A stretch of DNA of 38,175 nt, taken from Aulosira sp. ZfuVER01. Lineage in GTDB: Bacteria; Cyanobacteriota; Cyanobacteriia; Cyanobacteriales; Nostocaceae. The first letter of the stretch is position 1. Every line of letters starts with the position of its first letter. A program made the position numbers and the translations under genes. Positions 4,305 to 38,175 of this stretch are shown here, piece by piece. Where the stretch lies: positions 1 through 38,175 of the forward strand of contig JAVRCV020000077.1 of NCBI GenBank assembly GCA_034530615.2, read 5' to 3'. Below the pieces are notes generated by a model. The model did not search any database. It was not told the origin of the DNA and worked only from the letters and a program-made list of their open reading frames with translations.

Positions 4305-6380
4305 GTGCAAAAAAAAATGGGGTCGTTATCCAAGAGCGTGCCAGGAATGAAAAAGCGTTTATCATCGCCGCCACAGTGCCCAGATGACGTAGATCGACTA
4401 CAATCATACCCAGTCAAGCTGATGCAGCATCCGGAAGAACCAGCCCACCAGTTGTTACAACAGATTAATCAAATCATCGCTAACAAACCAGCGACGGTAT
4501 TGATGCTGCAAGATCTGGCTAAATTGCTGGGAGTGGCTTTTGGAGTAGATTGCTGCTTAGTTACAGTGATGAGCGAGCCATCTACTGAAGCGACTACTGT
4601 TAGTTGGTGTACAGAAGAATATCTAGGTTTACCGCAGTCAGACGAAATCTTCTCGATGGAACAGTTGCTCATGGAACTCCATGTAGTTCAATGTGCGGCT
4701 GAACCATTAAATATTGAGGACATTTCCACAATTCAAAAAAGTCTAGAAATTGGTTGTCAATCTTTGCCACTACCAATAAAAGCTGTTTTGGCAATTCCTA
4801 CCCGCTTTCGGGGTAAAAATAATGGGGTTATTAGTCTGATTAAATTTCAACCCCATAATTGGTCTCAGTCAGAACAACAACTTCTAAAAAGTGTAGAGTC
4901 ATCTTGCGCGATCGCTGTTGCTCAAGTCGCACAATCGCAATTGATTGGGTTGCAACAACAGCATTTGCAAAAAAGCAGCCAACATCAAAGCTTGATCAAG
5001 CAATTAACCATACTGAGTCGGAGCAACTTGGAGTTAAACCAAATGCTCCAATTAGCGCTCACCTCTACGGCGGAATCGCTACAGGCAGATCGGGGTTTGT
5101 TCATTATGTTGAAATATACAGATCCCCTATTTCGGACTCGCTCTAAAAAACAAATTCCCAATGCTAAAGCAACAGTAACTGGACAATGGTCTAAGGATGC
5201 CCCTTCTAGCGCATCCAATATCTTGAAAGATCAGACCTTTGTGGTTTCAGAGTGTGGTTTATGCCAGCGCGTATTCACAGAATCAGGAAAACCAGTAGTT
5301 ATTAATGACTATACAGAACAAAAAGATATTGTCACAGCAGCTCAACTATTTGGCGTAGAGCAGTTCCCGGCAGTGCTGTTAATGCCATTAGAGAGTCAAG
5401 GCAGAGTATTAGGATTTTTAGTTCTACAGCAAGCAGTAGCTCGAACTTGGCAAGCAGCAGAATTAAATCTTGTGGAAATGGTCTGCGCACAAGTTAGTAA
5501 TGCGATTATTCAGTCACAGACATTACGCCAAGTGCAAAATTTAGTAGATGAACGGACAGCTAAACTCCAAAGCAGTCTGGAATTGCAAGCTAAATTGCAC
5601 GAAAGAACAAGGCAATATGTTGAGCAGTTGCGAGAACTCAATGAACTCAAAGATGAATTTTTGAGCAATATGAGCGATCGCTTACGCTACCCACTGACAA
5701 ATATGCTGATGTCAATTCGGAATTTGCGTCTGCCAGGAATAGCACCAGAGCGCCAGAATCGATATTTCGATATCTTAGAGCAGGAATGTACCAAAGAAAT
5801 AAATTTGATTAATGACTTGCTGACACTCCAAAAACTAGAGTCTCAACAAGCAACTCCACAATTTGAAACTATAGATTTAAATACACGAATTCAGGATTTA
5901 GCTGCTTCTTTCGAGCGAAAACTAGCCGAGAAAGGATTAAGCATTACCCTAGATTTACCAGAGGATTCGTTAAGGCTACAAACTGAAGTTGAAAGTTTTG
6001 ACCGCATCCTGCAAGAGTTACTCACTAATGCCTGTAAATACTCAGAGCATGACACCATTGTAGATTTGCAAGCCACTCATCAAGTCAATCAACTGGTCGA
6101 TCAAGTTATTATTAAGGTGACTAATATAGGACGCGGCATCTCTTCTGAAGAAGCGACTTACATCTTTGACAAGTTCCGTCGCGGTAAAGGACGCTGGACT
6201 CCTGGGACTGGTTTGGGTTTGGCTCTAGCCAAGTCCCTTGTACAGCATTTAAATGGGACAATTGCCGTTGAGAGTATGCAAATTTCAGATTCCGATCTGA
6301 GCAAAATTTGTTTTACCCTGACCCTACCCCAGTTTTCTGACGAAAGCAAACTATATTCTGACAGTGACTCAAAAACCTAA
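4305..6380 (+). CDS. Tandem-GAF sensor histidine kinase-like protein with a degenerate H-box; start uncertain
   Basis: Two GAF-like domains (VLAIPTR..GVISL; VLLMPLESQGRVLGFLVLQQ), a coiled coil, DEFLSNMSDRLRYPL, N-box ELLTNACKYS and G2 GTGLGL. Confidence 0.88.
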   Translation: MQKKMGSLSKSVPGMKKRLSSPPQCPDDVDRLQSYPVKLMQHPEEPAHQLLQQINQIIANKPATVLMLQDLAKLLGVAFGVDCCLVTVMSEPSTEATTVSWCTEEYLGLPQSDEIFSMEQLLMELHVVQCAAEPLNIEDISTIQKSLEIGCQSLPLPIKAVLAIPTRFRGKNNGVISLIKFQPHNWSQSEQQLLKSVESSCAIAVAQVAQSQLIGLQQQHLQKSSQHQSLIKQLTILSRSNLELNQMLQLALTSTAESLQADRGLFIMLKYTDPLFRTRSKKQIPNAKATVTGQWSKDAPSSASNILKDQTFVVSECGLCQRVFTESGKPVVINDYTEQKDIVTAAQLFGVEQFPAVLLMPLESQGRVLGFLVLQQAVARTWQAAELNLVEMVCAQVSNAIIQSQTLRQVQNLVDERTAKLQSSLELQAKLHERTRQYVEQLRELNELKDEFLSNMSDRLRYPLTNMLMSIRNLRLPGIAPERQNRYFDILEQECTKEINLINDLLTLQKLESQQATPQFETIDLNTRIQDLAASFERKLAEKGLSITLDLPEDSLRLQTEVESFDRILQELLTNACKYSEHDTIVDLQATHQVNQLVDQVIIKVTNIGRGISSEEATYIFDKFRRGKGRWTPGTGLGLALAKSLVQHLNGTIAVESMQISDSDLSKICFTLTLPQFSDESKLYSDSDSKT

Positions 6381-24565: not shown

Positions 24566-25756
24566 TCACATATTTAATTGCAAGGGAAAAGCCACAGTAA
24601 AAGTAGAACCAACTCCAATCTCCGAAACTAAATTAATTTCACCTTGCAGTAGTTTCACCAATCGAGCAACTATTGCCAAACCTAATCCAGTACTTCCAGG
24701 AACGTAGGATTTATTAATAGAACTCACGCGAAAATAAGGTTCAAAGATCTGGGTTTGATTTTCTGGTGCAATCCCAATTCCTGTATCGGTAACTGCGATC
24801 GCCCATTTTTGATCGTCTAAGACTTGACACGTTATATTGATCTTCCCTGACTCTGTGTAGCGGATTGCATTACTAACAAGATTTGTAACAATCTGTTGCA
24901 ATTTCAATGGATCTGTAAATACCTGTTGAGGAGAACGATCGCAATTAACTAAAATTGGTAAGTTTTTTTCCCTAGCAAGAGGCTCCAACATTTCCAACAC
25001 ATTTTTGATTATTTCATACACATTAGTAAATTCTGGTTCGGGTTGTACCTTGCCTGCATCATAACGAGAAAGTTCCAGGATATCGTTGATTAGATGGAGT
25101 AAATGTCTGCCATTGCGTAATACACGCTCAATATGTTCTAGATTTATTTGGGTATCATTGACCCCATTTTGCTGTCTTTGTTGGCGTAAAAATAAATCTG
25201 AGTAACCAATAATTGAAGCTAAAGGACTTTTCAGTTCGTGTGCTAGTTGATGAAGATAATCTTGATTAGTATTCACTAAGCGATTTAGTTCTTCATTATG
25301 GAGTATTAGAGAATTATATAGTTGTTGTAATTCCCGCAAGCGTTCTTCAAAATAACTATTAAAACAACGCGCGATCGCTTCATCAATTACTGTATCAATC
25401 AACCGCATAGCACGCACAATCTCTGTTGGGGTCCCTTGCAATAAATATATTTCTATAGTTTCAAATATTACTGTTCTTAGCAGATGATATTCTCGCGCAA
25501 TTTCTGCTGGGTCAAAACCTTGTGCAGCGCGGAGAATCCCGTGTTGCCAACTAGCCACAACTATTGATTTAACATCATTTCCCTGAGATTCCGAAAGTAC
25601 AGTTACCATTGCTTTGATCACCTCAGGCAGATGATTTTTGATTGCTGTATAAGATAAATCATCAGCACTTTCGATATACTTATCTTTACGAACCTCTATT
25701 ACCCATTTCTGGAGGATAGTGTCAGTTTTTTCAGCCAGTACTTGACTAAAATCCAT
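24566..25756 (-). CDS. Histidine kinase with an N-terminal RsbRD-N-like (globin-fold) domain
   Basis: HGILRAAQGFDPAEIAREYHLLR; H-box LAHELKSPL, N-box NLVSNAIRYT, G1 DTGIGI and G2 GLGLAI. Confidence 0.92.
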   Translation of the reverse strand: MDFSQVLAEKTDTILQKWVIEVRKDKYIESADDLSYTAIKNHLPEVIKAMVTVLSESQGNDVKSIVVASWQHGILRAAQGFDPAEIAREYHLLRTVIFETIEIYLLQGTPTEIVRAMRLIDTVIDEAIARCFNSYFEERLRELQQLYNSLILHNEELNRLVNTNQDYLHQLAHELKSPLASIIGYSDLFLRQQRQQNGVNDTQINLEHIERVLRNGRHLLHLINDILELSRYDAGKVQPEPEFTNVYEIIKNVLEMLEPLAREKNLPILVNCDRSPQQVFTDPLKLQQIVTNLVSNAIRYTESGKINITCQVLDDQKWAIAVTDTGIGIAPENQTQIFEPYFRVSSINKSYVPGSTGLGLAIVARLVKLLQGEINLVSEIGVGSTFTVAFPLQLNM

Positions 25757-30172: not shown

Positions 30173-30832
30173 GTGAAAATCAAGCCAATGTTAGTGCGCC
30201 TACAAAGCACCATCGGTCGAGATGACTTAATTGAGCAAATGGTATTGCTACCAGAGCCAAAAAAAAACTTTTGTAAAAAAGATTCTACAGCAAAACCAGT
30301 TAACTTAATTGTCGCTTATGATGCATCTCCCAAGAGCCATACTGCGCTAGATATAGCCTTCTGGATTGCTCACCAAACGCGCTTAGCTACCAATACACAA
30401 GTAACAGTTCAAGCCGTTTATGTGGTTACAGATAAGCATAAGAGTCAGTATTCAGATATCTTTAGCTTTACCAGACATATCACTCCCTTAGAATGTCCCA
30501 CAAGCAATGTATCTAAATCTGTCACACCCGTTTTAACTCAACCAAAACTCCAAGCGATTGCACCACATTTAAAAGAAAAATCCATAGCTGTTCTGCAACA
30601 AGCAGACCAAATTCTTTGGCAAGCACGTAGTCTGGCTGAAGAATGGCAAGGTTCTTTTAAATCTCATTTACGATTTGGTGCTATTGGTGCAGAACTTAAA
30701 AAAGTTGTGGAATTAGAAGCTGCCGATATCCTATTTATAGGTTGTCGATCTGTTAATCATCCTATTATCAAAGCACTAGGTTCCGATTTTCCTTGTGCTG
30801 TGTTAGGTATACCTAGTTGTATTGAAGAATAA
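30173..30832 (+). CDS. Universal stress protein (USP)-like protein
   Basis: LIVAYDASPKSHTALDIA, VQAVYVV and LRFG...LKKVVELEAADILFIG. Confidence 0.82.
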   Translation: MKIKPMLVRLQSTIGRDDLIEQMVLLPEPKKNFCKKDSTAKPVNLIVAYDASPKSHTALDIAFWIAHQTRLATNTQVTVQAVYVVTDKHKSQYSDIFSFTRHITPLECPTSNVSKSVTPVLTQPKLQAIAPHLKEKSIAVLQQADQILWQARSLAEEWQGSFKSHLRFGAIGAELKKVVELEAADILFIGCRSVNHPIIKALGSDFPCAVLGIPSCIEE

Positions 30833-31062
30833 ATTCGGTAACGAGTTCAGTCACTCTTCATTGAATTAAGATTCCTCGGATTCCTGTTTGATTTCTAAAT
30901 ATACTCAACATATCTCTAGTTCCCTTTCTGTTTCTCGTTTTGTATTCACTGGCTTTTTGAGTATTTTCATGAATTAAATTGGAGTCCTATATCAATAAGT
31001 CACCTATATTTAGGTGGCTTTTTTCAGTAATACCTAATCGATTAAACTTTGAGAGCAATAGC

Positions 31063-32400
31063 GTGGAAAATTGGCAAGCGATCCTGAGCGTCATGACTTT
31101 TATAACTGTCATTATCTTAATAATGACAGAATGGGTACATCTCACTATTGCTGCTTTATTAGGCGCATTATTACTAGTTTTTAGCAACGTTATGACTTTA
31201 GAAGAAGCCGTTGGTTACATCGGTAATAGTCATGGCACACTAGGTTTATTCTTCGGAGTTATGGTACTGGTAAGGGCATTTGAGCCTACCAAAATATTTG
31301 ATTACCTAGCCACACAAATGGTGCTATTGGCCAGAGGTCAAGGTAAGCGTCTCCTACTTGGTATTGTTGCTATTACTACCCCAATTTGTGCAGTTTTACC
31401 AAATGCTACAACAGTGATGTTATTAGCACCTTTAATTCCGCCAATGGCAGAAGAAATAGGCATCAATTTTGTACCTTTATTAATTTTAATGGTATTTATT
31501 GCTAATAGTGCGGGATTACTCACATTAGTTGGAGATCCTGCTACCTTTATTGTTGGTGATGCAATTAATATCAGTTTTATAGATTATTTGTTGCGCTTGA
31601 GTTTAGGTGGAGTAATTGCCGTTGCTACAGTGACAGCCACTTTACCTTTTTTATTTCGTAAAATTTGGAATACTAAACTAGAAAATCTTGAACAACTGCC
31701 ACATCCACAAATTAATCATCCACGTGTTCTAGCAGTTGGTGCAGTAATTATAGCTTTTGTACTATTATTTTTTGTGATTGGCGAATCTCTACCAGTTCCG
31801 ATATCACCTGCTGCTGTTGCTTTACTAGGAGCAGCCCTAGCTTTACTTTTATCTAACCAGAGCAAAATCGATTCAGTTCACAACATATTAAGGGATGTTG
31901 ACTGGAGTACATTAATATTCTTTATGAGTATTTTTGTGCTGATTGGTGGACTAGAAAAAACAGGGGTAATCAACGGCTTATCCGGGATATTAGCAATAAT
32001 ATTAGGAAAAAATATTGTCTTGGGTTCGCTATTTTTATTATTTTTTGTAGTGATATTATCTAGCGTTGTTCCTAATATTCCATTAGTAGTGGCGATGGTT
32101 CCCTTACTCAAACAATACCTTGTCAACGTCGGATTAGCACCAGCCGTAGTTCTAGCATCAGATTTTCAAGGGCAATTTCCTCCAGAAGTGTTACCACTGT
32201 TTTACGCCATGATGTTTGGTGCAACGTTGGGTGGTAACGGCACACTAGTAGGAGCATCTTCTAACATCGTCGCCGCCGGAATTTCTGAGCAGCATGGACG
32301 CCAGATCTCTTTTAGAACATTTCTACACTACGGGATACCAGTAATGCTACTACAACTAATCGCTGCGGCTTTGTATGTGTTGTTTCGCTTTCTAATCTAA
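31063..32400 (+). CDS. ArsB/NhaD/CitMHS (IT superfamily) permease
   Basis: LPNATTV, ANSAGLLTLVGDP, VDWSTLIFF, VPNIP and LGGNGTLVGASSN. GTG 31063 is the likely start (ORF track gives 30979). Confidence 0.9.
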   Translation: MENWQAILSVMTFITVIILIMTEWVHLTIAALLGALLLVFSNVMTLEEAVGYIGNSHGTLGLFFGVMVLVRAFEPTKIFDYLATQMVLLARGQGKRLLLGIVAITTPICAVLPNATTVMLLAPLIPPMAEEIGINFVPLLILMVFIANSAGLLTLVGDPATFIVGDAINISFIDYLLRLSLGGVIAVATVTATLPFLFRKIWNTKLENLEQLPHPQINHPRVLAVGAVIIAFVLLFFVIGESLPVPISPAAVALLGAALALLLSNQSKIDSVHNILRDVDWSTLIFFMSIFVLIGGLEKTGVINGLSGILAIILGKNIVLGSLFLLFFVVILSSVVPNIPLVVAMVPLLKQYLVNVGLAPAVVLASDFQGQFPPEVLPLFYAMMFGATLGGNGTLVGASSNIVAAGISEQHGRQISFRTFLHYGIPVMLLQLIAAALYVLFRFLI

Positions 32401-32628
32401 GTAGGTGAGAGGTTGAAATTCTTAAAACCCTCTTCTAAAGCAGAATTTTTTTAACTATTACTTAATATTTACAAATATAAACTTGTATACAGATGCATCT
32501 CTTCCGTAGGGAGGATGTATTTGCTTGTTGTATTCAAAGATCCTACCCTACGGAGAGATTTTTGTTCTCTCGATCTGGTAAAACAACTATAAGTACAACT
32601 AATTACAACTTAACAAAGGATTAAACCC

Positions 32629-33237
32629 ATGAACCCGCCTGAAGAATACATCAATAATAACTTGAGAGAACCAGGGCAAGGGGGGTCAATGCAAGAGCTA
32701 AACAAATCACAATTCAATGGTGCGAATCTTAGCGAACTTAACAGTTTAGATAGAGTCAGAGATATTCTTTTCGGCAACCAAGTACGAGAAGTTGAAAAAA
32801 GATTTGCACGCTTAGAAGAACGTCTAGTTAAAGAATTAACTAACGTGCGAGATGAGACAAAAAAACGTTTAGATTATTTAGAAACATATATCAAGAAAGA
32901 AGTTGATTCTTTAACAGAACGTTTAAAAAATGAGCAGTTAGAAAGAGATGCAGGTGTAAAAGCACTTGCTGAGGAGCATAAAAATCTCGCTAGTTCTTTA
33001 GACAAAAAATTTGCTCAATTTGATGAACAAACTGCGAATAGCCAGCGGGAACTGCGCGAACACCTCCTCAACCAATCTAATAGTCTCCAGGATGATATTA
33101 GAAAAAAATATGAAGAAATCCTGAGTTTGCTGGAACAGGAATCTCAAGAACTGCGCAGAGAAAAAACTGACCGTTCCAAGTTGGCATCTCTGTTTACAGA
33201 ACTAGCTATCAGGCTAAACTCGGATACCAATGTTTAG
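32629..33237 (+). CDS. Coiled-coil hypothetical protein (first gene of the GTPase operon)
   Basis: LDRVRDILFG.Q.RE.E.RF..LE followed by a long heptad helix and KTDRSKLASLFTELA. Confidence 0.85.
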   Translation: MNPPEEYINNNLREPGQGGSMQELNKSQFNGANLSELNSLDRVRDILFGNQVREVEKRFARLEERLVKELTNVRDETKKRLDYLETYIKKEVDSLTERLKNEQLERDAGVKALAEEHKNLASSLDKKFAQFDEQTANSQRELREHLLNQSNSLQDDIRKKYEEILSLLEQESQELRREKTDRSKLASLFTELAIRLNSDTNV

Positions 33238-33426
33238 TTAAAGCAAGGAGTTAGAGGTTTTCTCCTCTCTCCTTGCTAAATTTTCAGTTTTGCATACATA
33301 GATATAACTTTATAAATTAAAAATTTCAAAAATTAAACTGCTTGATGGCAAATGTTATAGTTGCTAAATGTCTAAAATTAAAAATGTAAAACTTGAGTAT
33401 AAATTTTAAAGCGGGGGATTTTCACA

Positions 33427-35295
33427 ATGAGTAACAAATCCACGAATGAAGTATCTAAAGAATCCCCTAAATTGCAAAGTAATGGTAGCCAAACCAGCAT
33501 TACGGTAAGTCCTGCGAGTATGGGAGAAACCCAGCGCTTAATGCAGTCGCCTAAATTGGAAAACACTCCCGTATCTCCAGAACTTCAGATCAAAACCCGT
33601 GATGAATTAAGTACACTTCGCAGTTTACTCCTTGGTGTTGAGCCGACTAAACTTAACAAACTCTATGAACGATTAGATAACCCCCAAATTCAAGCAGAAG
33701 ATATTGGACGCCTGCTTCCAGAAGCTGTGGTATTGCGATCAAAGCTAGATAAACAATTGGCTGAAGCAATAGTATCTACTGTCGAAACAGCAATTCATTC
33801 CTCAATCAAACAAGATCACAATATACTTTCAGAGACCTTTTTTCCCATCATTGGGCCAGCCACTCGCAAGGCTATTTCCACAGCACTGGAAGAGATGATG
33901 CAATCTCTCAATCAAACTCTAGAACATAGCTTGTCACCACAGAGTTTGCAGTGGCGGTTAGAAGCAAAAAGAACAGGTAAATCGCTGGCAGAAATTATCC
34001 TGCTGCGGACGCTGCTTTACCGAGTAGAACAAGTATTTTTGATTCATAAACAAACTGGATTATTGCTGCAACATCTCGTCGCGCCTAGGGTAATAATTCA
34101 AGATCCGGATTTAGTATCAGCGATGTTGACAGCTATCCAGGATTTTGTGAAAGACTCTTTCAATGTGGAAAAAACTGAAGGACTGCACAGTTTACAGTTT
34201 GGAGAACTTACCATTTGGGTGGAAGAAGGCCCACAAGCTGTACTAGCAGCGATAATTCGGGGAAACCCGCCTCAAGAATTAAGGTCAATTCTGCAAGATG
34301 CGATCGCCAAAATTCACTTAAAGCTAAGTAGCGAAATTAACGATTTTACTGGAGATACAGAACCATTTACAGCCAGTAAACCTTATTTAGAAGCTTGTTT
34401 AGTTGATGGCTATAAATCCGCACCTAAGAAAAATTATACTTATGCGTGGGGTTTATTAGGTACAATAGCGATCGCTTGTGGGATTTGGGGCTTTTTCACG
34501 CTCAGAGACCAATTCCGTTGGCATTCCTATATTCAAAAACTTGAATCTCAACCAGGAATCGTTGTGGTTAATACTAAGCAACACCAGGGTAAATATCTAA
34601 TTTCCGGAATGCGCGATCCTTTAGCAGTAGACCCCAAAGCACTTATACAGCAAGCAAATCTCGATCCTCAAAAGGTAATTAGTCAGTGGCGAGCTTACAT
34701 ATCATTAGATCCGCAATTGCTTACCATAAGATCTGAGAAACTATTGCTACCACCAAAAACAGTATTATTAAAAGTTGACAATAATGGCATTCTCAATGCT
34801 AGTGGTTCTGCACCACGCCAATGGATTTTAGAAACACGAAAATTATGGCATTTTATTCCAGGGGTAACTCAATTTAATGACAAAAATCTTCAAGAAATCG
34901 AACTCAGCCAACTAGAGCTATATAAACAGCAAATTGAACAAGAAACACTATTCTTTTCAGAAGGAACAACAGAGTTAATGACAGGTGAAGCTGATAAACT
35001 CCCTAATCTAGTGAGCAAAATAAATCAGCTTTTAGATACTGCCAAATATCTTGGTAAAGATATCCGTCTGCAAATTACAGGACACACTAGTACTACTGGA
35101 ACTGAACAAAGAAACAATTTTCTGAGCCAAGCTCGCGCTAATAAAATTTTATCTTATCTGACTTCCCAAGGAATCAACACCAGCAAATTCAATGCTATAG
35201 GTGTAAGTTCTAACTCATCTTTACTACTAGAATTGGCACAAGAAGCTAACCGCAAAGTATCCTTCAAAATATTCATAGACAACACTGCTAAATGA
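33427..35295 (+). CDS. Bitopic membrane protein: cytoplasmic helical and roadblock/longin-like region, TM, BON-like segments, OmpA/MotB-like C-terminal domain
   Basis: TM AWGLLGTIAIACGIWGFF; OmpA motifs ITGHTS..G....N..LSQARA and NRKVSF. Confidence 0.85.
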   Translation: MSNKSTNEVSKESPKLQSNGSQTSITVSPASMGETQRLMQSPKLENTPVSPELQIKTRDELSTLRSLLLGVEPTKLNKLYERLDNPQIQAEDIGRLLPEAVVLRSKLDKQLAEAIVSTVETAIHSSIKQDHNILSETFFPIIGPATRKAISTALEEMMQSLNQTLEHSLSPQSLQWRLEAKRTGKSLAEIILLRTLLYRVEQVFLIHKQTGLLLQHLVAPRVIIQDPDLVSAMLTAIQDFVKDSFNVEKTEGLHSLQFGELTIWVEEGPQAVLAAIIRGNPPQELRSILQDAIAKIHLKLSSEINDFTGDTEPFTASKPYLEACLVDGYKSAPKKNYTYAWGLLGTIAIACGIWGFFTLRDQFRWHSYIQKLESQPGIVVVNTKQHQGKYLISGMRDPLAVDPKALIQQANLDPQKVISQWRAYISLDPQLLTIRSEKLLLPPKTVLLKVDNNGILNASGSAPRQWILETRKLWHFIPGVTQFNDKNLQEIELSQLELYKQQIEQETLFFSEGTTELMTGEADKLPNLVSKINQLLDTAKYLGKDIRLQITGHTSTTGTEQRNNFLSQARANKILSYLTSQGINTSKFNAIGVSSNSSLLLELAQEANRKVSFKIFIDNTAK

Positions 35296-35310
35296 AGTAA
35301 TTATCAATTT

Positions 35311-35808
35311 ATGCTCCAGAAAAAAATATGTATGGTAGGTGCATTTGCTACAGGTAAAACAAGTTTAGTGGCAAGATTTGTCAATAGCATTTTTTCGGAA
35401 AATTACCATACTACTGTAGGCGTAAAAATTGATAAAAAAACAGTAATAATTCAAGAAAAAACAATTAATTTAATTCTTTGGGATCTCTATGGAGAAGATG
35501 AATTTCAAAAAGTGCGTATGTCTTATTTACGAGGATCATCTGGATATTTATTAGTAGTAGATGGCACTCGTAAAAATACTCTCGAAAAAGCCTTTGATTT
35601 GCAAACAAGAGTAGAAGAGGCTATTGGTAAAGTCCCCTTTATTATAATACTGAACAAATCAGATTTGACATACGAATGGGAGATTGATCCTATAGAAATC
35701 GACGCAATTAAGCAGAAGAATTGGACTGTGATTAAAACCAGTGCTAAAACTGGCCTGGGTGTAGCAGAAGTTTTTCAAACTCTTGCTGAGAAAATAATGG
35801 ATGGATAA
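35311..35808 (+). CDS. Stand-alone Ras-superfamily (Rab-like, Rup-type) small GTPase
   Basis: G1 GAFATGKTS, G2 TTVGV, G3 WDLYG, G4 NKSD and G5 SAK; no C-terminal lipidation motif. Confidence 0.93.
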   Translation: MLQKKICMVGAFATGKTSLVARFVNSIFSENYHTTVGVKIDKKTVIIQEKTINLILWDLYGEDEFQKVRMSYLRGSSGYLLVVDGTRKNTLEKAFDLQTRVEEAIGKVPFIIILNKSDLTYEWEIDPIEIDAIKQKNWTVIKTSAKTGLGVAEVFQTLAEKIMDG

Positions 35809-36210
35809 ATGCTAGATGTTCCCAGTGCCGTTATTGCTTATTTGTTGACTTTTATTTTAGAAGAACGCTCACTCGCCTATCTTTTAGTCAAAAAAGATGG
35901 CTGCTTGTCTGCTTGGGGAGGAAAAATGGCTGCATACGGAGTTACTAACCTGAAAAAAGGAGAAAATATCAAAGAACAGGTTTTTTTTCTAGAAGGTCTA
36001 CTGCCATTAGACGATTTTCCTATATTTCTACCACGAATTAAAACTGAATACGGGATTTGTGCAGATCTTCATCTCTTTCCTTCAGAAGAAGGTGATTGGA
36101 TATTACTTCTAGATGCAACATGGGATGAGCAACATTGCGCACTTATTCAACAACAGTCGAATGAACTTAGCTTGTTGCAAGAAAAATCAACTAAAGTTTT
36201 AAAGCAGTAG
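35809..36210 (+). CDS. Small hypothetical protein (possible PAS-like fold), adjacent to the GTPase gene
   Basis: ATG immediately follows the GTPase TAA. The pattern AYLLV..DG.L..WGG ... ADLHLF...WILLLDAT is followed by a short coiled coil. Confidence 0.75.
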   Translation: MLDVPSAVIAYLLTFILEERSLAYLLVKKDGCLSAWGGKMAAYGVTNLKKGENIKEQVFFLEGLLPLDDFPIFLPRIKTEYGICADLHLFPSEEGDWILLLDATWDEQHCALIQQQSNELSLLQEKSTKVLKQ

Positions 36211-36246
36211 TTTACACAAAACACTAGTTTATGGTGCTATAAACTC

Positions 36247-37362
36247 ATGACTGACTCTATCACAGATGACCTCTTCGCAGCCTTGAATATTCTGGTGTTA
36301 GAGCGACTTAATCTCGGTTCCTTTAAAGTTATTGGGACTGTCCCAAATTGGTTAAGGCGCTTTTGTCATCCAAGAATTACATCAGGCGTCGAGGTATTAA
36401 TTCCAGAAGAACAGTTTCCTTTTTTGGAAAATTTTTTAGTTGATGCTGAAGAATTTTGGCAAAATAATAGCGCTACAACACTGAGTTCTGGATTCTGGAC
36501 GGATAATGATTTAGCTGGACAAGAATACCATTTTGAAGCATCAGCAATTTGTCTAAATAACAAAAAAATATTATTAATTGAATTATTGGAAGATTCTTAT
36601 AAAGAAAAACAATCTGTTATTCAAAAAGCTAGAGAAAATCAATTAAACTATCAACAATTACTCAAGGACAAACAAAAAAAAGAAGTTTTGATTCATTGTA
36701 TTATCCATGATATAGCAGGACAATTAAGCAGTATTAATTGTTGTCTAGCTCTCTTAGAATTTGAAAATTTAACACCTAAAGGACAAGAATGGTTAGACAT
36801 TGGCAGAGAACAGACAATTAAGCAAGAAATGCTGATCCGGGAAATATTAAATGCATTCTCCGCTGAAATGCGATCGCTGGAAGCTTTTATACTTGCTCCT
36901 GAACAATCACCCAATATTCTGACTGCTGCACAAGAAGTAATCAAGCTGCTAACTCCTACTTTTGCACTCAATAATATGCAATTACAGCTTGCTCATAATA
37001 TTGACTTGACAGCAGACTGGAAAGTGGTTGGCGATCGCTCGCGTTTAGATAGAGTAATCTCAAATTTAGTAGAAAATGCTTTGCGCTACAGCCCACCAGA
37101 GTCTACTGTGGAAATTGGTTTACAACAAGATGAAGACTCTATTTTGCTGACAGTTGACGATCGCGGTACAGGGGTCGCACCAGAAATTGCAGAAACTTTA
37201 TTTCAAAAATTTGCCCAAGGTAAAAATAAATCAGGTAAAGCTGGTCTTGGGCTTTACTTTTGCCGCATTACAGTTGAACGTTGGGGTGGGAAGATTGGTT
37301 ATTTACCCCGTCTTGAAGGCGGTTCTCGGTTTTGGTTTCGTCTATTAAGGCCGAAACATTAA
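36247..37362 (+). CDS. Cytoplasmic sensor histidine kinase
   Basis: H-box IIHDIAGQL, N-box NLVENALRYS, G1 DDRGTGV and G2 GLGLYFC; PAS-like N-terminus. Confidence 0.92.
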   Translation: MTDSITDDLFAALNILVLERLNLGSFKVIGTVPNWLRRFCHPRITSGVEVLIPEEQFPFLENFLVDAEEFWQNNSATTLSSGFWTDNDLAGQEYHFEASAICLNNKKILLIELLEDSYKEKQSVIQKARENQLNYQQLLKDKQKKEVLIHCIIHDIAGQLSSINCCLALLEFENLTPKGQEWLDIGREQTIKQEMLIREILNAFSAEMRSLEAFILAPEQSPNILTAAQEVIKLLTPTFALNNMQLQLAHNIDLTADWKVVGDRSRLDRVISNLVENALRYSPPESTVEIGLQQDEDSILLTVDDRGTGVAPEIAETLFQKFAQGKNKSGKAGLGLYFCRITVERWGGKIGYLPRLEGGSRFWFRLLRPKH

Positions 37363-37448
37363 GTAAGCATTAGTACTATTTGTATATTTCTTTGTAGATA
37401 AAACTGATGCTGTAACGATTTGTGAATGGACGCTGGCTATTCCTCGCC

Positions 37449-37535
37449 ATGTCGGCTACAGCGGCTATTTGGGCAATTGGCACTACGAAGTATATTGGAC
37501 TACTTGGCATCCCGACAATTGTTGATGCTTTTTAC
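37449..37535 (+). pseudogene. Short fragment resembling a ClC/EriC chloride-channel family gene
   Basis: AAIWAIGTTKYIGLLGIPTIVDAF resembles a YIGLG.PTI helix, with no intact gene around it. Confidence 0.4.
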
Positions 37536-37602
37536 GCCTACTCAGACTCTCGAAAAGCAAGATGACAATCATTCTTAATTTACTTAGCTTGGCATCACAA
37601 GT

Positions 37603-37958
37603 TGGGAAAGTCTGTGGCAGCAAGTACCACAGCTACCAACAAAAGCAGGAGAACGGCGTAGCACTTCTCGGATGCATCTATCAGAAGTAATGACAATAGT
37701 GATAGCCTTTCATGGCCGTGGATATAAGACTTTCAAGGAATTTTATCTGCTGCAAGTCCTACCTAGTTGGCGTGAAGCATTTCCTAATTTATTCAGCTAC
37801 ACAAGATTTGTGGAATTGATGCAGGAGTGCTTAATGCTGTTTTGATTGACGATTTAGCTGCTTATGCCTATTTGCCTAAAAAACCGTCGATTGACATTTA
37901 CCCAAAAGATTTGCCTGCACTACCTCCTGCCGTTTTTTAGTTCCGTCAAACTCACGTT
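37603..37958 (+). mobile_element. IS982-family remnant (internally deleted transposase plus right end)
   Basis: WESLWQQVPQLP...RMHLSEVMTIVIAFHG.GYKTFKEFY...AFPNLFSYTRFVELM is joined to C-terminal LAAYAYLPKKPSI...AVF*, then the end tccgtcaaactcacgtt. Confidence 0.8.
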
Positions 37959-38026
37959 TTTTTAGTGTGGGCGGCAAGATAATAAGTTCTTTCCCACACT
38001 GCAAGTTTAGGCTAACAGCGTTTACG

Positions 38027-38175
38027 TAGGGCTTGCTGAAAAAAAAGAAAAGGTTACAGTCTCTAGATTCTCATGGTGCGCTGGGCGATCAACTATCCGA
38101 CATAATAATCAATCATTAATAGAAGATATCGCACAAGCTGCCCCTAGGACACAGGGAAAAAGGGAAAGATTAGAT
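38027..38175. mobile_element. Possible IS5-type/MITE end running off the window
   Basis: TAGGGCTTGCTGAAAAA resembles a terminal repeat common in Nostoc elements; the partner end is not visible. Confidence 0.4.

What the first reader, a model, noticed from the sequence alone, without database searches (positions are those of the whole stretch)
32629..37362. Five-gene envelope-linked signalling operon built around a Rab-like small GTPase
Seen: five co-oriented genes encode a coiled-coil protein, a TM/OmpA protein, a 165-aa GTPase with G1-G5, a small PAS-like protein and a His kinase. Gaps between the last four are only 15, 0 and 36 bp, and there is no response regulator. Known: stand-alone prokaryotic Ras-family GTPases (MglA, Rup) exist, and Rup-type clusters next to two-component genes have been noted bioinformatically, but I know of no functional study in cyanobacteria. 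Inference: a peptidoglycan-anchored receptor gates a GTPase switch that controls a kinase.
Basis: partly seen in the sequence, partly recalled or inferred. Interest (0 to 1): 0.82.

Follow-up and report, generated by a model that had tools for sequence, protein, structure and literature searches.

The report
Catalogued Rup1 GTPase signalling cassette
The five genes are a real, conserved cyanobacterial copy of a Rab-like GTPase signalling cassette that was catalogued from genomes in 2014 and is still untested; the small fourth protein appears to be the kinase's detached GTPase-binding head.

Summary
All five co-oriented ORFs sit at the stated coordinates with gaps of 189, 15, 0 and 36 nt, and the block is conserved in Nostocales relatives.

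It is not a new system. It is the "Group 1 Rup" (Rup1) cassette of Wuichet & Søgaard-Andersen 2014 (PMC4316618): DUFY coiled coil > DUFX:TM:OmpA > Rup > output protein. That paper already lists Nostoc and Anabaena copies. This scan has also reported Rup1 cassettes on other DNA many times.

- The DUFX core models as a longin/Roadblock fold (Z 13.5).
- The 133-aa protein has a PAS fold (Z 10.9). It is the free-standing form of an N-terminal head domain that is fused elsewhere to cyclases, kinases, a sigma-54 activator and a PP2C phosphatase.
- That head is predicted to clamp Rup's P-loop and both switches, with its invariant Gln114/Gln115 at the nucleotide site (ipSAE 0.89 against a best control of 0.00).
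- In other cyanobacteria the head and this whole kinase form one 521-aa protein.

No response regulator is linked. I found no bench study. Interest is moderate to low.

The parts
32629..33237 (+). DUFY: 202-aa cytoplasmic coiled-coil protein, first gene of the Rup1 cassette
   Evidence: ORF. No Pfam or NCBIfam family above cut-off. Homologue present directly upstream of the OmpA-protein gene in 19 of the 21 cassettes seen in 20 fetched loci and in 5 of 5 loci.
33427..35295 (+). DUFX:TM:OmpA protein (622 aa): cytoplasmic helical region and longin/Roadblock-fold core, one hydrophobic (putative membrane-spanning) stretch, then a presumed periplasmic region ending in an OmpA-like domain
   Evidence: ORF; Pfam OmpA E 1.4e-11; conserved across both cyanobacterial Rup clades.
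34015..34422 (+). longin/Roadblock-fold core of DUFX (protein residues 197-332)
   Evidence: AF2 model of residues 62-340 from a 21-row alignment: overall pLDDT 58.9, about 80-89 over this part. Foldseek pdb gave 22 matches at E<=1e-3, headed by TRAPP Bet5 (5.2e-5), Mon1-Ccz1, Asgard Roadblock3, CPLANE and MglB. VIA-align: Z 13.5 to the VAMP7 longin domain (rmsd 2.4, 117 aligned), Z 11.5 to MglB.
34447..34503 (+). hydrophobic stretch, putative single membrane-spanning helix (W341-L359)
   Evidence: Hydrophobic stretch read from the sequence. Lys-rich segment before it. No topology predictor was run.
35026..35211 (+). OmpA-like domain (residues 534-595)
   Evidence: Pfam PF00691, 45 bits against a cut-off of 27.2. 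The motif reads GHTS...N..LS..RA: the Arg is kept, and the Asp of the usual GHTD is Ser here.
35311..35808 (+). Rup1 small GTPase (165 aa), Rab-like, lacking the catalytic Gln (G3 = DLYGE)
   Evidence: Pfam Ras E 4.4e-32. TIGR00231, 62.6 bits against a cut-off of 42.5. Best solved relatives are Rab23 (9.3e-24), Rab6 and Rab4. Motifs.
35809..36210 (+). free-standing Rup-binding head: PAS fold plus a long C-terminal helix carrying invariant Q114, Q115 and near-invariant N118
   Evidence: dN/dS median 0.17 in 23 usable of 36 pairs.
36247..37362 (+). soluble orphan histidine kinase (371 aa): HK-N domain 1-145, DHp with H154 (IIHDIAGQL), HATPase_c 262-367
   Evidence: Residues 1-366 align at 55% identity to residues 153-514 of the 521-aa P0243, whose first 130 residues are the head domain.

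Best explanation
This is a Nostocales copy of the Group 1 Rup (Rup1) envelope-linked small-GTPase signalling cassette. I put membership at about 0.95.

The most likely mechanism has four steps.

(1) Upstream regulator. The 622-aa protein most likely spans the inner membrane once. Its C-terminal OmpA-like domain would then face the cell wall, and its cytoplasmic longin/Roadblock-fold core, probably together with the coiled-coil DUFY protein, acts as the platform that sets the nucleotide state of Rup (GEF- or GAP-like). This step is inferred from fold and gene linkage only.

(2) The switch. Rup is a Rab-like switch with an intact nucleotide pocket. It has Glu in place of the catalytic Gln, and Phe at the Ras Gly12 position, so it should hydrolyse GTP poorly on its own. 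This is read from the sequence.

(3) The head. The 133-aa PAS-fold protein binds Rup across the P-loop, switch I, the interswitch strand and switch II. Its C-terminal helix puts invariant Gln114/Gln115 and Asn118 at the nucleotide site. It therefore reads the GTP state and may also supply a catalytic Gln in trans. Binding is predicted, not measured; catalysis is inferred.

(4) The output. In other lineages the same head is the N-terminal domain of cyclases, kinases, a sigma-54 activator and a PP2C phosphatase, and in some cyanobacteria of this very kinase. Here it is a separate polypeptide that most likely docks on the kinase's N-terminal domain, a possible distant paralogue of the head. That would couple the Rup state to autophosphorylation at His154 and on to an unlinked response regulator. 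This step is inferred from the gene fusion.
For: Membership:
- Gene order and domain content match the published description: a coiled-coil protein; an unknown domain plus membrane helix plus OmpA; Rup lacking the G3 Gln; and an output protein whose N-terminal region carries an invariant Gln (PMC4316618 passages).
- Table S2 of that paper lists all3030, Npun_F1891 and Ava_0879 as DUFY>DUFX:OmpA>Rup with Rup of 165-166 aa.

Head domain:
- A profile of the head finds 809 representatives at E<=1e-3. In 146 of the 150 best, the match starts within the first 20 residues.
- Of 30 longer hits scanned in Pfam, 18 are histidine kinases, 4 nucleotidyl cyclases, 1 a sigma-54 activator, 1 SpoIIE, 1 OmpA, and 5 have no family.
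- In 401 cyanobacterial genomes, 13 of 13 head-domain matches lie directly 3' of a Rup orthologue.
- Invariant over 48 sequences: G38, P66, D86, Q114, Q115.

Predicted complex (Rup + GTP + Mg + head):
- ipSAE 0.89/0.88/0.89 against a best control of 0.00. That mark was reached by 116 of 157 solved complexes and 2 of 215 mismatched pairs.
- The three runs share >=98% of their contacts, and the partner's pLDDT is >=91.
- Own alignments and riding ligands were used, so the calibration holds only roughly.
- Interface on Rup: F12, A13, Y32-T34, V36-K42, Y60, D63, E64, R69-S76. Interface on the head: K55-L64, I72-E80, E107-E125. Q114, Q115 and N118 are among the lowest-error contacts, with T34 and F12/A13.
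- The head has no sequence relative among solved structures (0 matches at E<=1), so recall of a solved complex is unlikely.

Fusion with the kinase:
- The window kinase (residues 1-366) matches P0243 residues 153-514 at 55% identity, E 4e-146.
- 28 of the 150 best representatives carry the HK-N domain directly after the head.

Selection: head dN/dS median 0.17, against 0.14 for Rup.

DUFX fold.
Against: - Nothing here is experimental. No RNA data were available.
- The DUFX model is weak overall (pLDDT 58.9); only the longin/Roadblock part is confident. A shared fold does not show GEF or GAP activity.
The complex was run with GTP only, so nucleotide dependence is untested.
- The cassette exists without the head in 2 of 16 orthologous cases (G162, G095a) and without the kinase in 2 of 16 (G306, G144). 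Neither part is therefore obligatory for the other.
- The nearest relatives of the free-standing head in the tree are cyclase-fused, not kinase-fused, heads (weak support of 84, quick tree). The head may thus derive from a lost cyclase output and need not serve the kinase.
- Homology between the head and HK-N is not established. HMMER finds nothing. hhalign gives P 0.057 with a narrow HK-N profile and P 0.009 with a broader one.
- The OmpA-like domain has Ser where relatives often have Asp.
Confidence: 0.55

Rival explanations
1. The free-standing head is not an adaptor to the kinase. It is a dedicated off-switch or decoy: a soluble GAP or competitor that binds Rup-GTP and ends or buffers signalling. 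The kinase would then read Rup through its own N-terminal domain, or not at all.
For: The head's nearest relatives are cyclase-fused forms, and the gene order Rup > head-cyclase > kinase exists in G302 (L018). This suggests the head is what remains of a second output. The kinase occurs with Rup but without any head in G162 and G095a. HK-N shows an end-to-end, weak similarity to the head (hhalign P 0.009 over 121 columns), and its nearest language-model neighbours are 131-138-aa cyanobacterial hypothetical proteins (score 0.92, a lead only). Invariant Gln/Gln/Asn sit at the nucleotide site.
Against: Head and kinase are one polypeptide in P0243-type proteins, and 28 of 150 representatives carry head + HK-N in tandem. 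That argues they act together. No model of HK-N with Rup could be run.
Confidence: 0.25
2. Signal flow is inside-out. The kinase, or an unknown cytoplasmic cue, sets the Rup state, and Rup-GTP acts on the DUFY/DUFX:OmpA envelope protein to change cell-wall attachment, polarity or motility, as MglA acts on polar machinery.
For: Longin/Roadblock proteins can be effectors or platforms as well as regulators (fold only). The DUFY-DUFX:OmpA-Rup core is the most conserved part, present in 14 of 16 orthologous cases, while the outputs vary or are missing.
Against: The head domain that contacts the Rup switches is fused to classic output enzymes (cyclase, kinase, sigma-54 activator, PP2C). This fits Rup acting upstream of them. 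The kinase has no recognisable sensor other than HK-N.
Confidence: 0.12
3. The 133-aa ORF is a decaying remnant of a truncated output gene with no function of its own.
For: It equals the first ~130 residues of longer proteins. One relative (G284, L011) shows a clearly deleted locus.
Against: 209 homologues were found; the 120 listed are 118-138 aa long. dN/dS median is 0.17, like Rup at 0.14. Core residues are invariant. The gene is tightly packed against Rup (0-nt gap).
Confidence: 0.03
4. The cassette is an anti-phage defence or other conflict system rather than a housekeeping signalling pathway.
For: The OmpA/MotB-like part gives weak PADLOC matches to ZorB (E 2.8e-9). Presence is patchy: 9 of 45 genomes of the same family, not counting the window's own genome, hold the head.
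Against: No PADLOC family matches Rup or the head. The ZorB match covers only the generic OmpA-like domain. The flanks are ordinary chromosomal genes (Usp, CitMHS) shared with relatives.
Confidence: 0.03

Closest known systems
Group 1 Rup (Rup1) system, Wuichet & Søgaard-Andersen 2014, Genome Biol Evol 7:57 (PMC4316618; abstract, passages and supplementary Table S2 read)
   Same: Same gene order and content: DUFY coiled coil, DUFX + membrane helix + OmpA, a small Rup GTPase without the G3 Gln, and an output with an N-terminal region carrying an invariant Gln. Nostoc PCC 7120, N. punctiforme and A. variabilis copies with Rup of 165-166 aa are listed there.
   Different: The paper describes four genes with a fused output (kinase or GGDEF/EAL). 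Here the N-terminal head is a separate 133-aa gene in front of a kinase. [quoted passage not shown] Cyclase, sigma-54 and PP2C outputs are not mentioned in the passages I read.
MglA-MglB (Myxococcus/Thermus) polarity switch
   Same: A small Ras-superfamily GTPase encoded next to a Roadblock-fold regulator. MglB is among the structural matches of DUFX (Z 11.5, rmsd 2.7, 108 aligned).
   Different: Rup keeps the G3 Asp (DLYG), which MglA lacks according to PMC4316618. There is no Robl_LC7 Pfam match. The Roadblock-like domain is part of a large protein with one hydrophobic, putative membrane-spanning stretch and an OmpA-like domain.
Actinobacterial conservon (CvnA-D)
   Same: A histidine kinase, a Roadblock-fold protein and a small GTPase in one operon. 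PMC4316618 draws this analogy itself.
   Different: There is no DUF742/CvnC. The kinase is soluble and lacks the HAMP and LPxR features described for CvnA. The GTPase is of the Rup clade, not the MglA clade.
Eukaryotic Rab with longin-domain GEFs (TRAPP, Mon1-Ccz1, CPLANE) and Gln-finger GAPs
   Same: The GTPase is most similar to Rab23, Rab6 and Rab4 among solved proteins. DUFX's best structural matches include the TRAPP Bet5, Mon1-Ccz1 and CPLANE longin domains. A partner Gln at the nucleotide site recalls GAPs that supply Gln in trans, a point made in PMC4316618.
   Different: There is no C-terminal Cys prenylation motif (the protein ends ...KIMDG). The putative Gln donor is a PAS-fold domain, not a TBC domain. 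No activity is shown.

Membership tests
Group 1 Rup (Rup1) system | Stand-alone Ras-superfamily GTPase under 240 aa with G1-G5 | tested here: met
   165 aa; Pfam Ras E 4.4e-32; motifs read.
Group 1 Rup (Rup1) system | G3 keeps Asp (DxxG) but lacks the catalytic Gln | tested here: met
   WDLYGEDEF; Glu follows the Gly in all 23 rows at 50% identity or more of alignment A3; the 6 second-clade rows have His (4), Ser or Gln.
Group 1 Rup (Rup1) system | Upstream DUFY coiled-coil gene and DUFX + membrane helix + OmpA gene | tested here: met
   Direct alignment to the catalogued all3030/Npun_F1891 neighbours was not done, because their sequences were not fetched by name.
Group 1 Rup (Rup1) system | Signal-output protein whose N-terminal region carries an invariant Gln | tested here: met
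   Present in split form. Q114 and Q115 of the head are invariant in 48 sequences, and the head is N-terminal in kinases and cyclases. That this is the same Gln as in the paper's logo is inferred; the figure is not held.
Group 1 Rup (Rup1) system | Placement inside the Rup Group 1 clade in a tree with reference sequences | not tested
   No tree with the paper's reference set was built.
MglA family | G3 without the conserved Asp; coupled MglB (Robl_LC7) gene | tested here: not met
   D58 is present. No Robl_LC7 Pfam match in any of the five proteins.
Conservon (CvnA-D) | CvnC (DUF742) and a membrane HAMP kinase with a C-terminal LPxR motif | tested here: not met
   No DUF742 or HAMP Pfam match. 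The kinase ends ...RLLRPKH and has no hydrophobic segment on reading the sequence.
Longin/Roadblock fold (DUFX core) | alpha-beta-beta-alpha-beta-beta-beta(-alpha) sandwich matching solved longin/Roadblock domains | tested here: met
   Predicted model only: 22 Foldseek matches at E<=1e-3; Z 13.5/11.5. There is no sequence-level match (Pfam; PDB).
PAS fold (133-aa head) | Five-stranded antiparallel sheet with flanking helices matching solved PAS domains | tested here: met
   Predicted model: Z 10.9, rmsd 1.9, 82 aligned to ThkA PAS; the other rows shown are almost all PAS, LOV, PYP or phytochrome PAS domains. Foldseek's best E is 1.8e-3. No Pfam PAS match.
Two-component histidine kinase | Phospho-acceptor His in a DHp, a GHKL ATPase with N/G1/F/G2 boxes, and a cognate response regulator | tested here: inconclusive
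   HATPase_c E 7.7e-24. HisKA was not matched in Pfam, but NCBIfam kinase models align from about residue 117-150 onward. H154 lies in IIHDIAGQL. No receiver domain is linked.
Eukaryotic Rab | C-terminal Cys prenylation motif | tested here: not met
   The C-terminus reads ...AEKIMDG, with no Cys.

The most novel reading that the evidence does not exclude
The PAS-fold head would be a previously unrecognised class of bacterial small-GTPase partner. It would act as effector and GAP at once, reading Rup-GTP through the switch regions and supplying Gln114/Gln115 (with Asn118) in trans to a GTPase that lacks its own catalytic Gln. In Nostocales it would have been released as a diffusible subunit that couples one GTPase to a separate kinase. 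Together with a cell-wall-tethered longin/Roadblock regulator, this would make a complete bacterial counterpart of the eukaryotic longin-GEF / Rab / Gln-finger-GAP logic.
Probability: 0.3. Interest if true: 0.7.

Novelty: new member of a known kind. Interest (0 to 1): 0.36.

Why it matters
Rup1 GTPases are the closest bacterial relatives of eukaryotic Rab, Ras and Rho (PMC4316618; bioRxiv 10.1101/2024.02.28.582541, passages read). I found no paper in which any Rup1 system has been tested. The searches were made; locus tags all3030, all3029, all3031, Npun_F1891, Npun_F1893 and Ava_0879 gave 0 papers.

This copy offers a convenient dissection. The GTPase-binding head, the kinase and the GTPase are three small soluble proteins that can be purified separately. 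Concrete residues to mutate are available (Q114, Q115, N118; Rup F12, T34, E62). Close homologues exist in genetically tractable Nostoc and Anabaena strains.

As a discovery it adds little that is categorically new. The cassette is catalogued, and the longin/Roadblock reading of DUFX has already been reached several times in this scan on other genomes.

Tried and rejected
1. First idea: the 133-aa protein is an MglB/Roadblock-like partner, as in a conservon. Rejected: it models as a PAS fold.

2. Sequence homology between the head and the kinase's N-terminal domain:
- BLASTP E 0.24.
- HMMER profiles, narrow, wide and five iterations over 1005 sequences: no hit.
- hhalign global: nothing. hhalign local: P 0.057. 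With a broader HK-N profile: P 0.009 over 121 collinear columns.
- Left as 'possible distant paralogue', not claimed.

3. HK-N against the Pfam-recognised PAS that follows the head in second-clade kinases: hhalign P 0.74.

4. Sequence relatives among solved structures: none for DUFX (best E 0.31) and none for the head (0 at E<=1).

5. PADLOC: only generic OmpA/MotB (ZorB) and coiled-coil matches.

6. RNA evidence: no RNA holder was listed for the 4.7-kb stretch.

7. Promoter scan: 11 sites against 14.9 expected, which is uninformative.

8. Careful maximum-likelihood tree of head domains: not finished within 300 s. The quick tree was used, rows with a matched stretch under 100 residues were left out, and most forks are unresolved.

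10. Paper searches for bench work on Rup1 or on the Nostoc/Anabaena locus tags found none. One hit for 'Rup' (PMC9090330) was only an author name in its reference list.

Full report
**Observation.** One search lists five + strand ORFs at exactly the reported coordinates:
- 32629-33237 (202 aa)
- 33427-35295 (622 aa)
- 35311-35808 (165 aa)
- 35809-36210 (133 aa)
- 36247-37362 (371 aa)

The gaps are 189, 15, 0 and 36 nt. Pfam gives OmpA (E 1.4e-11, residues 534-595) for the 622-aa protein. It gives Ras (E 4.4e-32; Roc 1.6e-24; Arf 7.3e-16) for the 165-aa protein, and HATPase_c (E 7.7e-24) for the 371-aa protein. The 133-aa protein has no family, and the 202-aa protein has only a sub-threshold coiled-coil-type match. 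NCBIfam agrees. The GTPase motifs are GAFATGKT, T34/T35, DLYG, NKSD and SAK. No terminator-like site lies inside the block; the only ones sit at 32500, before the first gene. Both the GTPase and the 133-aa protein are single-copy in the 8.03-Mb genome.

**Conservation.** Five loci found through the 133-aa protein (named Nostoc and Amazonocrinis records) all carry the five genes in the same order, with differing flanks (5 of 5). Because that sample was chosen through the fourth gene, I also sampled through the GTPase.

In 401 cyanobacterial genomes, 66 have a match at E<=1e-20. Of these matches, 16 genes in 15 genomes are orthologues at 50% identity or more. The rest form a second clade at 37-46% identity. 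I fetched the 14 loci that hold the 15 orthologues outside the window, plus six second-clade loci, and read the neighbourhoods by BLASTP.

Among the 16 orthologous cases, the window included:
- 8 have the identical five-gene form.
- 1 has the fourth gene fused to a cyclase domain and followed by the kinase (G302).
- 2 have the kinase but no fourth gene (G162, G095a).
- 2 have the fourth gene but no kinase (G306, G144).
- 1 has a head-cyclase fusion and no kinase (G095b).
- 1 has the head as the N-terminus of a 648-aa hybrid kinase (G016).
- 1 lies at a contig end with a deleted remnant (G284).

The coiled-coil > OmpA-protein > GTPase core is present in 14 of 16 orthologous cases and in 6 of 6 second-clade loci.

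**What it is.** This is the "Group 1 Rup" system of Wuichet & Søgaard-Andersen (PMC4316618). The passages I read describe rup genes flanked by three conserved genes:
- a cytoplasmic coiled-coil protein;
- a protein with an unknown conserved domain, an inner-membrane helix and a C-terminal OmpA domain;
- a signal-output protein (histidine kinase or GGDEF/EAL) whose N-terminal region has an invariant Gln.

The authors note that Group 1 Rup lacks the G3 Gln. They speculate that a GAP supplies it in trans, and they compare the system with the conservon. Their Table S2 lists all3030 (Nostoc PCC 7120), Npun_F1891 and Ava_0879 as DUFY>DUFX:OmpA>Rup with Rup of 165-166 aa. They state that no Rup has been characterised.

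My paper searches found no later bench work, and none of the locus tags appears in any held paper. This scan has itself reported Rup1 cassettes on other genomes many times. Those reports include the longin/Roadblock reading of DUFX, dead-cyclase adaptors, sigma-54 outputs and the PCC 7120 copy. I saw these notes only after my own. They agree with my reading and lower the novelty.

**The membrane protein.** An alignment of 21 homologues (22-79% identity) shows a strongly conserved cytoplasmic core: FLIHK..GL, then MLTAI..F..D. The AF2 model of residues 62-340 is weak overall (pLDDT 58.9) but confident (about 80-89) over protein residues of roughly 197-332. Its topology there is helix, two strands, helix, three strands, helices. 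Foldseek against the PDB gives 22 matches at E<=1e-3, headed by TRAPP Bet5 (5.2e-5), Mon1-Ccz1, Asgard Roadblock3, CPLANE and MglB. The Foldseek-independent search gives Z 13.5 to the VAMP7 longin domain (rmsd 2.4, 117 aligned) and to CPLANE. It gives Z 11.5 to MglB and 11.3-11.4 to Mon1-Ccz1, with 60 chains at Z>=8.

So the Rup1 'DUFX' has the fold that serves as GEF, GAP or platform for small GTPases elsewhere. No sequence-level relation is detectable. A hydrophobic stretch (W341-L359) follows; it was read from the sequence and no topology predictor was run. Beyond it come a presumed periplasmic region and the OmpA-like domain. The latter keeps the Arg of N..LS..RA but reads GHTS where 10 of 20 relatives read GH[TS]D.

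**The 133-aa protein.**
- It has 209 homologues; the 120 listed are 118-138 aa long, essentially all unnamed and without Pfam domains. The named ones are almost all from Nostocales.
- It models as a PAS fold with a long C-terminal helix (pLDDT 81.5; Z 10.9 to ThkA PAS).
- A profile search of 1.84 billion representatives finds 809 proteins at E<=1e-3. In 146 of the 150 best, the match begins within the first 20 residues, and 90 of those 150 are 280 aa or longer.
- Of 30 longer ones scanned, 18 are histidine kinases (several hybrid), 4 class III cyclases, 1 a sigma-54 activator, 1 a SpoIIE/PP2C phosphatase, 1 OmpA, and 5 have no family.
- By local BLAST, 44 of the 150 carry a cyclase domain.
- In the 401-genome sample the domain occurs in 13 genomes, each time directly 3' of a Rup orthologue (13 of 13).

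It is therefore the free-standing form of the 'N-terminal region' of Rup1 outputs. Invariant over 48 diverse sequences are G38, P66, D86, Q114 and Q115; N118 was nearly invariant (90% or more) in the narrower 25-sequence Nostocales alignment. It is under purifying selection: median dN/dS is 0.17 in 23 usable of 36 pairs, against 0.14 for Rup. Many pairs are saturated at synonymous sites.

**Predicted complex.** Rup (29-row alignment) with GTP and Mg, and the head (48-row alignment) as partner, scored ipSAE 0.89, 0.88 and 0.89 against 0.00 for the best of three controls. That mark was reached by 116 of 157 solved complexes and 2 of 215 mismatched pairs. The runs share at least 98% of their contacts, and the partner's pLDDT is at least 91. 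My own alignments and riding ligands differ from the calibration, so those counts hold only roughly. The model supports binding; it does not show it.

The interface uses Rup F12/A13 (P-loop), Y32-T34 (switch I), V36-K42 (interswitch strand), and Y60, D63, E64 and R69-S76 (switch II). On the head it uses K55-L64, the strand I72-E80 and the helix E107-E125. Among the lowest-error contacts are T34 with Q114 and Q115, and F12/A13 with N118. No solved relative of the head exists by sequence, so recall of a known complex is unlikely. This geometry is what the 2014 authors' 'Gln in trans' speculation would require. Catalysis remains an inference.

**Head and kinase.** The whole window kinase (residues 1-366) aligns at 55% identity (E 4e-146) to residues 153-514 of P0243. 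P0243 is a 521-aa kinase, in a cluster with Leptolyngbyaceae members, whose residues 1-130 are the head. In all, 28 of the 150 best representatives carry the kinase's N-terminal domain (HK-N) immediately after the head. The window's fourth and fifth genes thus correspond to one gene elsewhere, which is a classical fusion argument that they work together.

The split is stable and not a read-through artefact. The two ORFs are in frame in the window, but in only 2 of 7 five-gene loci that I checked by arithmetic on the coordinates.

In the quick tree, the Nostocaceae free-standing heads form one clade (6 rows, support 100). Their nearest neighbours are cyclase-fused heads (support 84, poorly resolved), and G302 has Rup > head-cyclase > kinase. 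The head may therefore descend from a second, cyclase-type output that lost its enzyme. I cannot decide between fission of a kinase and truncation of a cyclase.

HK-N may itself be a diverged copy of the head. The evidence is hhalign P 0.009 over 121 collinear columns with a broad profile, P 0.057 with a narrow one, and nothing by HMMER. A language-model look-up also puts 131-138-aa cyanobacterial hypothetical proteins nearest to HK-N (0.92, a lead only).

**Kinase and partners.** The kinase is soluble, has H154 in IIHDIAGQL and a complete GHKL domain. No receiver domain is encoded in 0 of 28 other window ORFs or in 0 of 30 ORFs downstream of the cassette in 11 relatives. It is an orphan.

**Mechanism and its status.**
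- Read from sequence or measured in silico: cassette membership, motifs, conservation, selection, fusion.
- Predicted: folds; Rup-head binding.
- Inferred: DUFX as nucleotide-state regulator; the head as Gln-donating GAP and effector; head-kinase docking; direction of flow.

The main rival is that the free head is a decoy or off-switch rather than an adaptor. Inside-out signalling, a dead remnant and a defence role are less likely, for the reasons given under rivals.

**Verdict.** This is a new member of a known, catalogued but experimentally untouched kind, with a lineage-typical split output. Interest is moderate to low as a discovery. It has some practical value as a clean three-protein test bed for how bacterial Rab-like GTPases signal.

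Noticed in passing
L012:10540-13656, L015:9531-12668, L017:10851-13985, L020:8561-11647: A co-oriented ORF of 1028-1045 aa follows the cassette in 4 of 11 related loci. It has no Pfam family (two show only a faint Bac_DNA_binding stretch). The window ends about 800 nt after the kinase, so its presence here is unknown.
   Followed up: no
window 30173-32400; L009, L012, L014, L015, L017, L020, L021: The Usp-family gene and the CitMHS/ArsB-type transporter upstream of the cassette are syntenic with it in several relatives. Both are present in L009, L012 and L014; one of the two is present in L015, L017, L020 and L021. In L004 the transporter is reduced to fragments.
   Followed up: partly
L021 (G095:C13:66000-85999): Two Rup cassettes lie in tandem on one strand: a truncated OmpA-less DUFX (465 aa) > Rup > head-cyclase (339 aa), then DUFY > DUFX:OmpA > Rup > kinase without a head. 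The same genome has three further Ras-like genes.
   Followed up: partly
L011:1361-1762 (G284:C230): Directly after Rup lies a 133-aa ORF that matches residues 254-366 of the kinase (74% identity). It looks like a deletion that removed the head and the first two thirds of the kinase.
   Followed up: no
L023-L028; table: A second clade of Ras-like GTPases (37-46% identity, open frames of 173-228 aa) is much more widespread: 24 of 25 genomes of family f3 and 6 of 6 of f4. It sits in cassettes with larger DUFX:OmpA proteins (741-982 aa). The GTPase is followed by a PAS kinase of 504-532 aa in 4 of 6 loci and by a PAS/GAF cyclase of 698-941 aa in 4 of 6. In L023 an 851-aa hybrid kinase is inserted before Rup.
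   Followed up: partly
window 4305-6380 (+) and 24566-25756 (-): The window holds two further histidine kinases (a GAF-HisKA-HATPase and an RsbRD_N-HisKA-HATPase), again with no receiver-domain gene anywhere in the window.
   Followed up: no
window 37363-38175: After the kinase come only short ORFs (50 and 57 aa) with no Pfam family, and GC rises from 0.35 to 0.42. This may be a rearrangement or an insertion-element scar at the point where relatives have other genes.
   Followed up: no
G000:C14:263-730 (L002): The genome's only other match to the GTPase is a weak one (E 2e-4, 24% identity) at the start of a 929-aa open frame. It is possibly a Roco-type multidomain GTPase.
   Followed up: no
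window 35809-37362: The head and the kinase are in the same reading frame, separated by one stop and 12 codons (36247 - 35809 = 438). Among the seven five-gene loci I checked by arithmetic, only L013 shares this, so it looks like chance rather than programmed read-through.
   Followed up: partly
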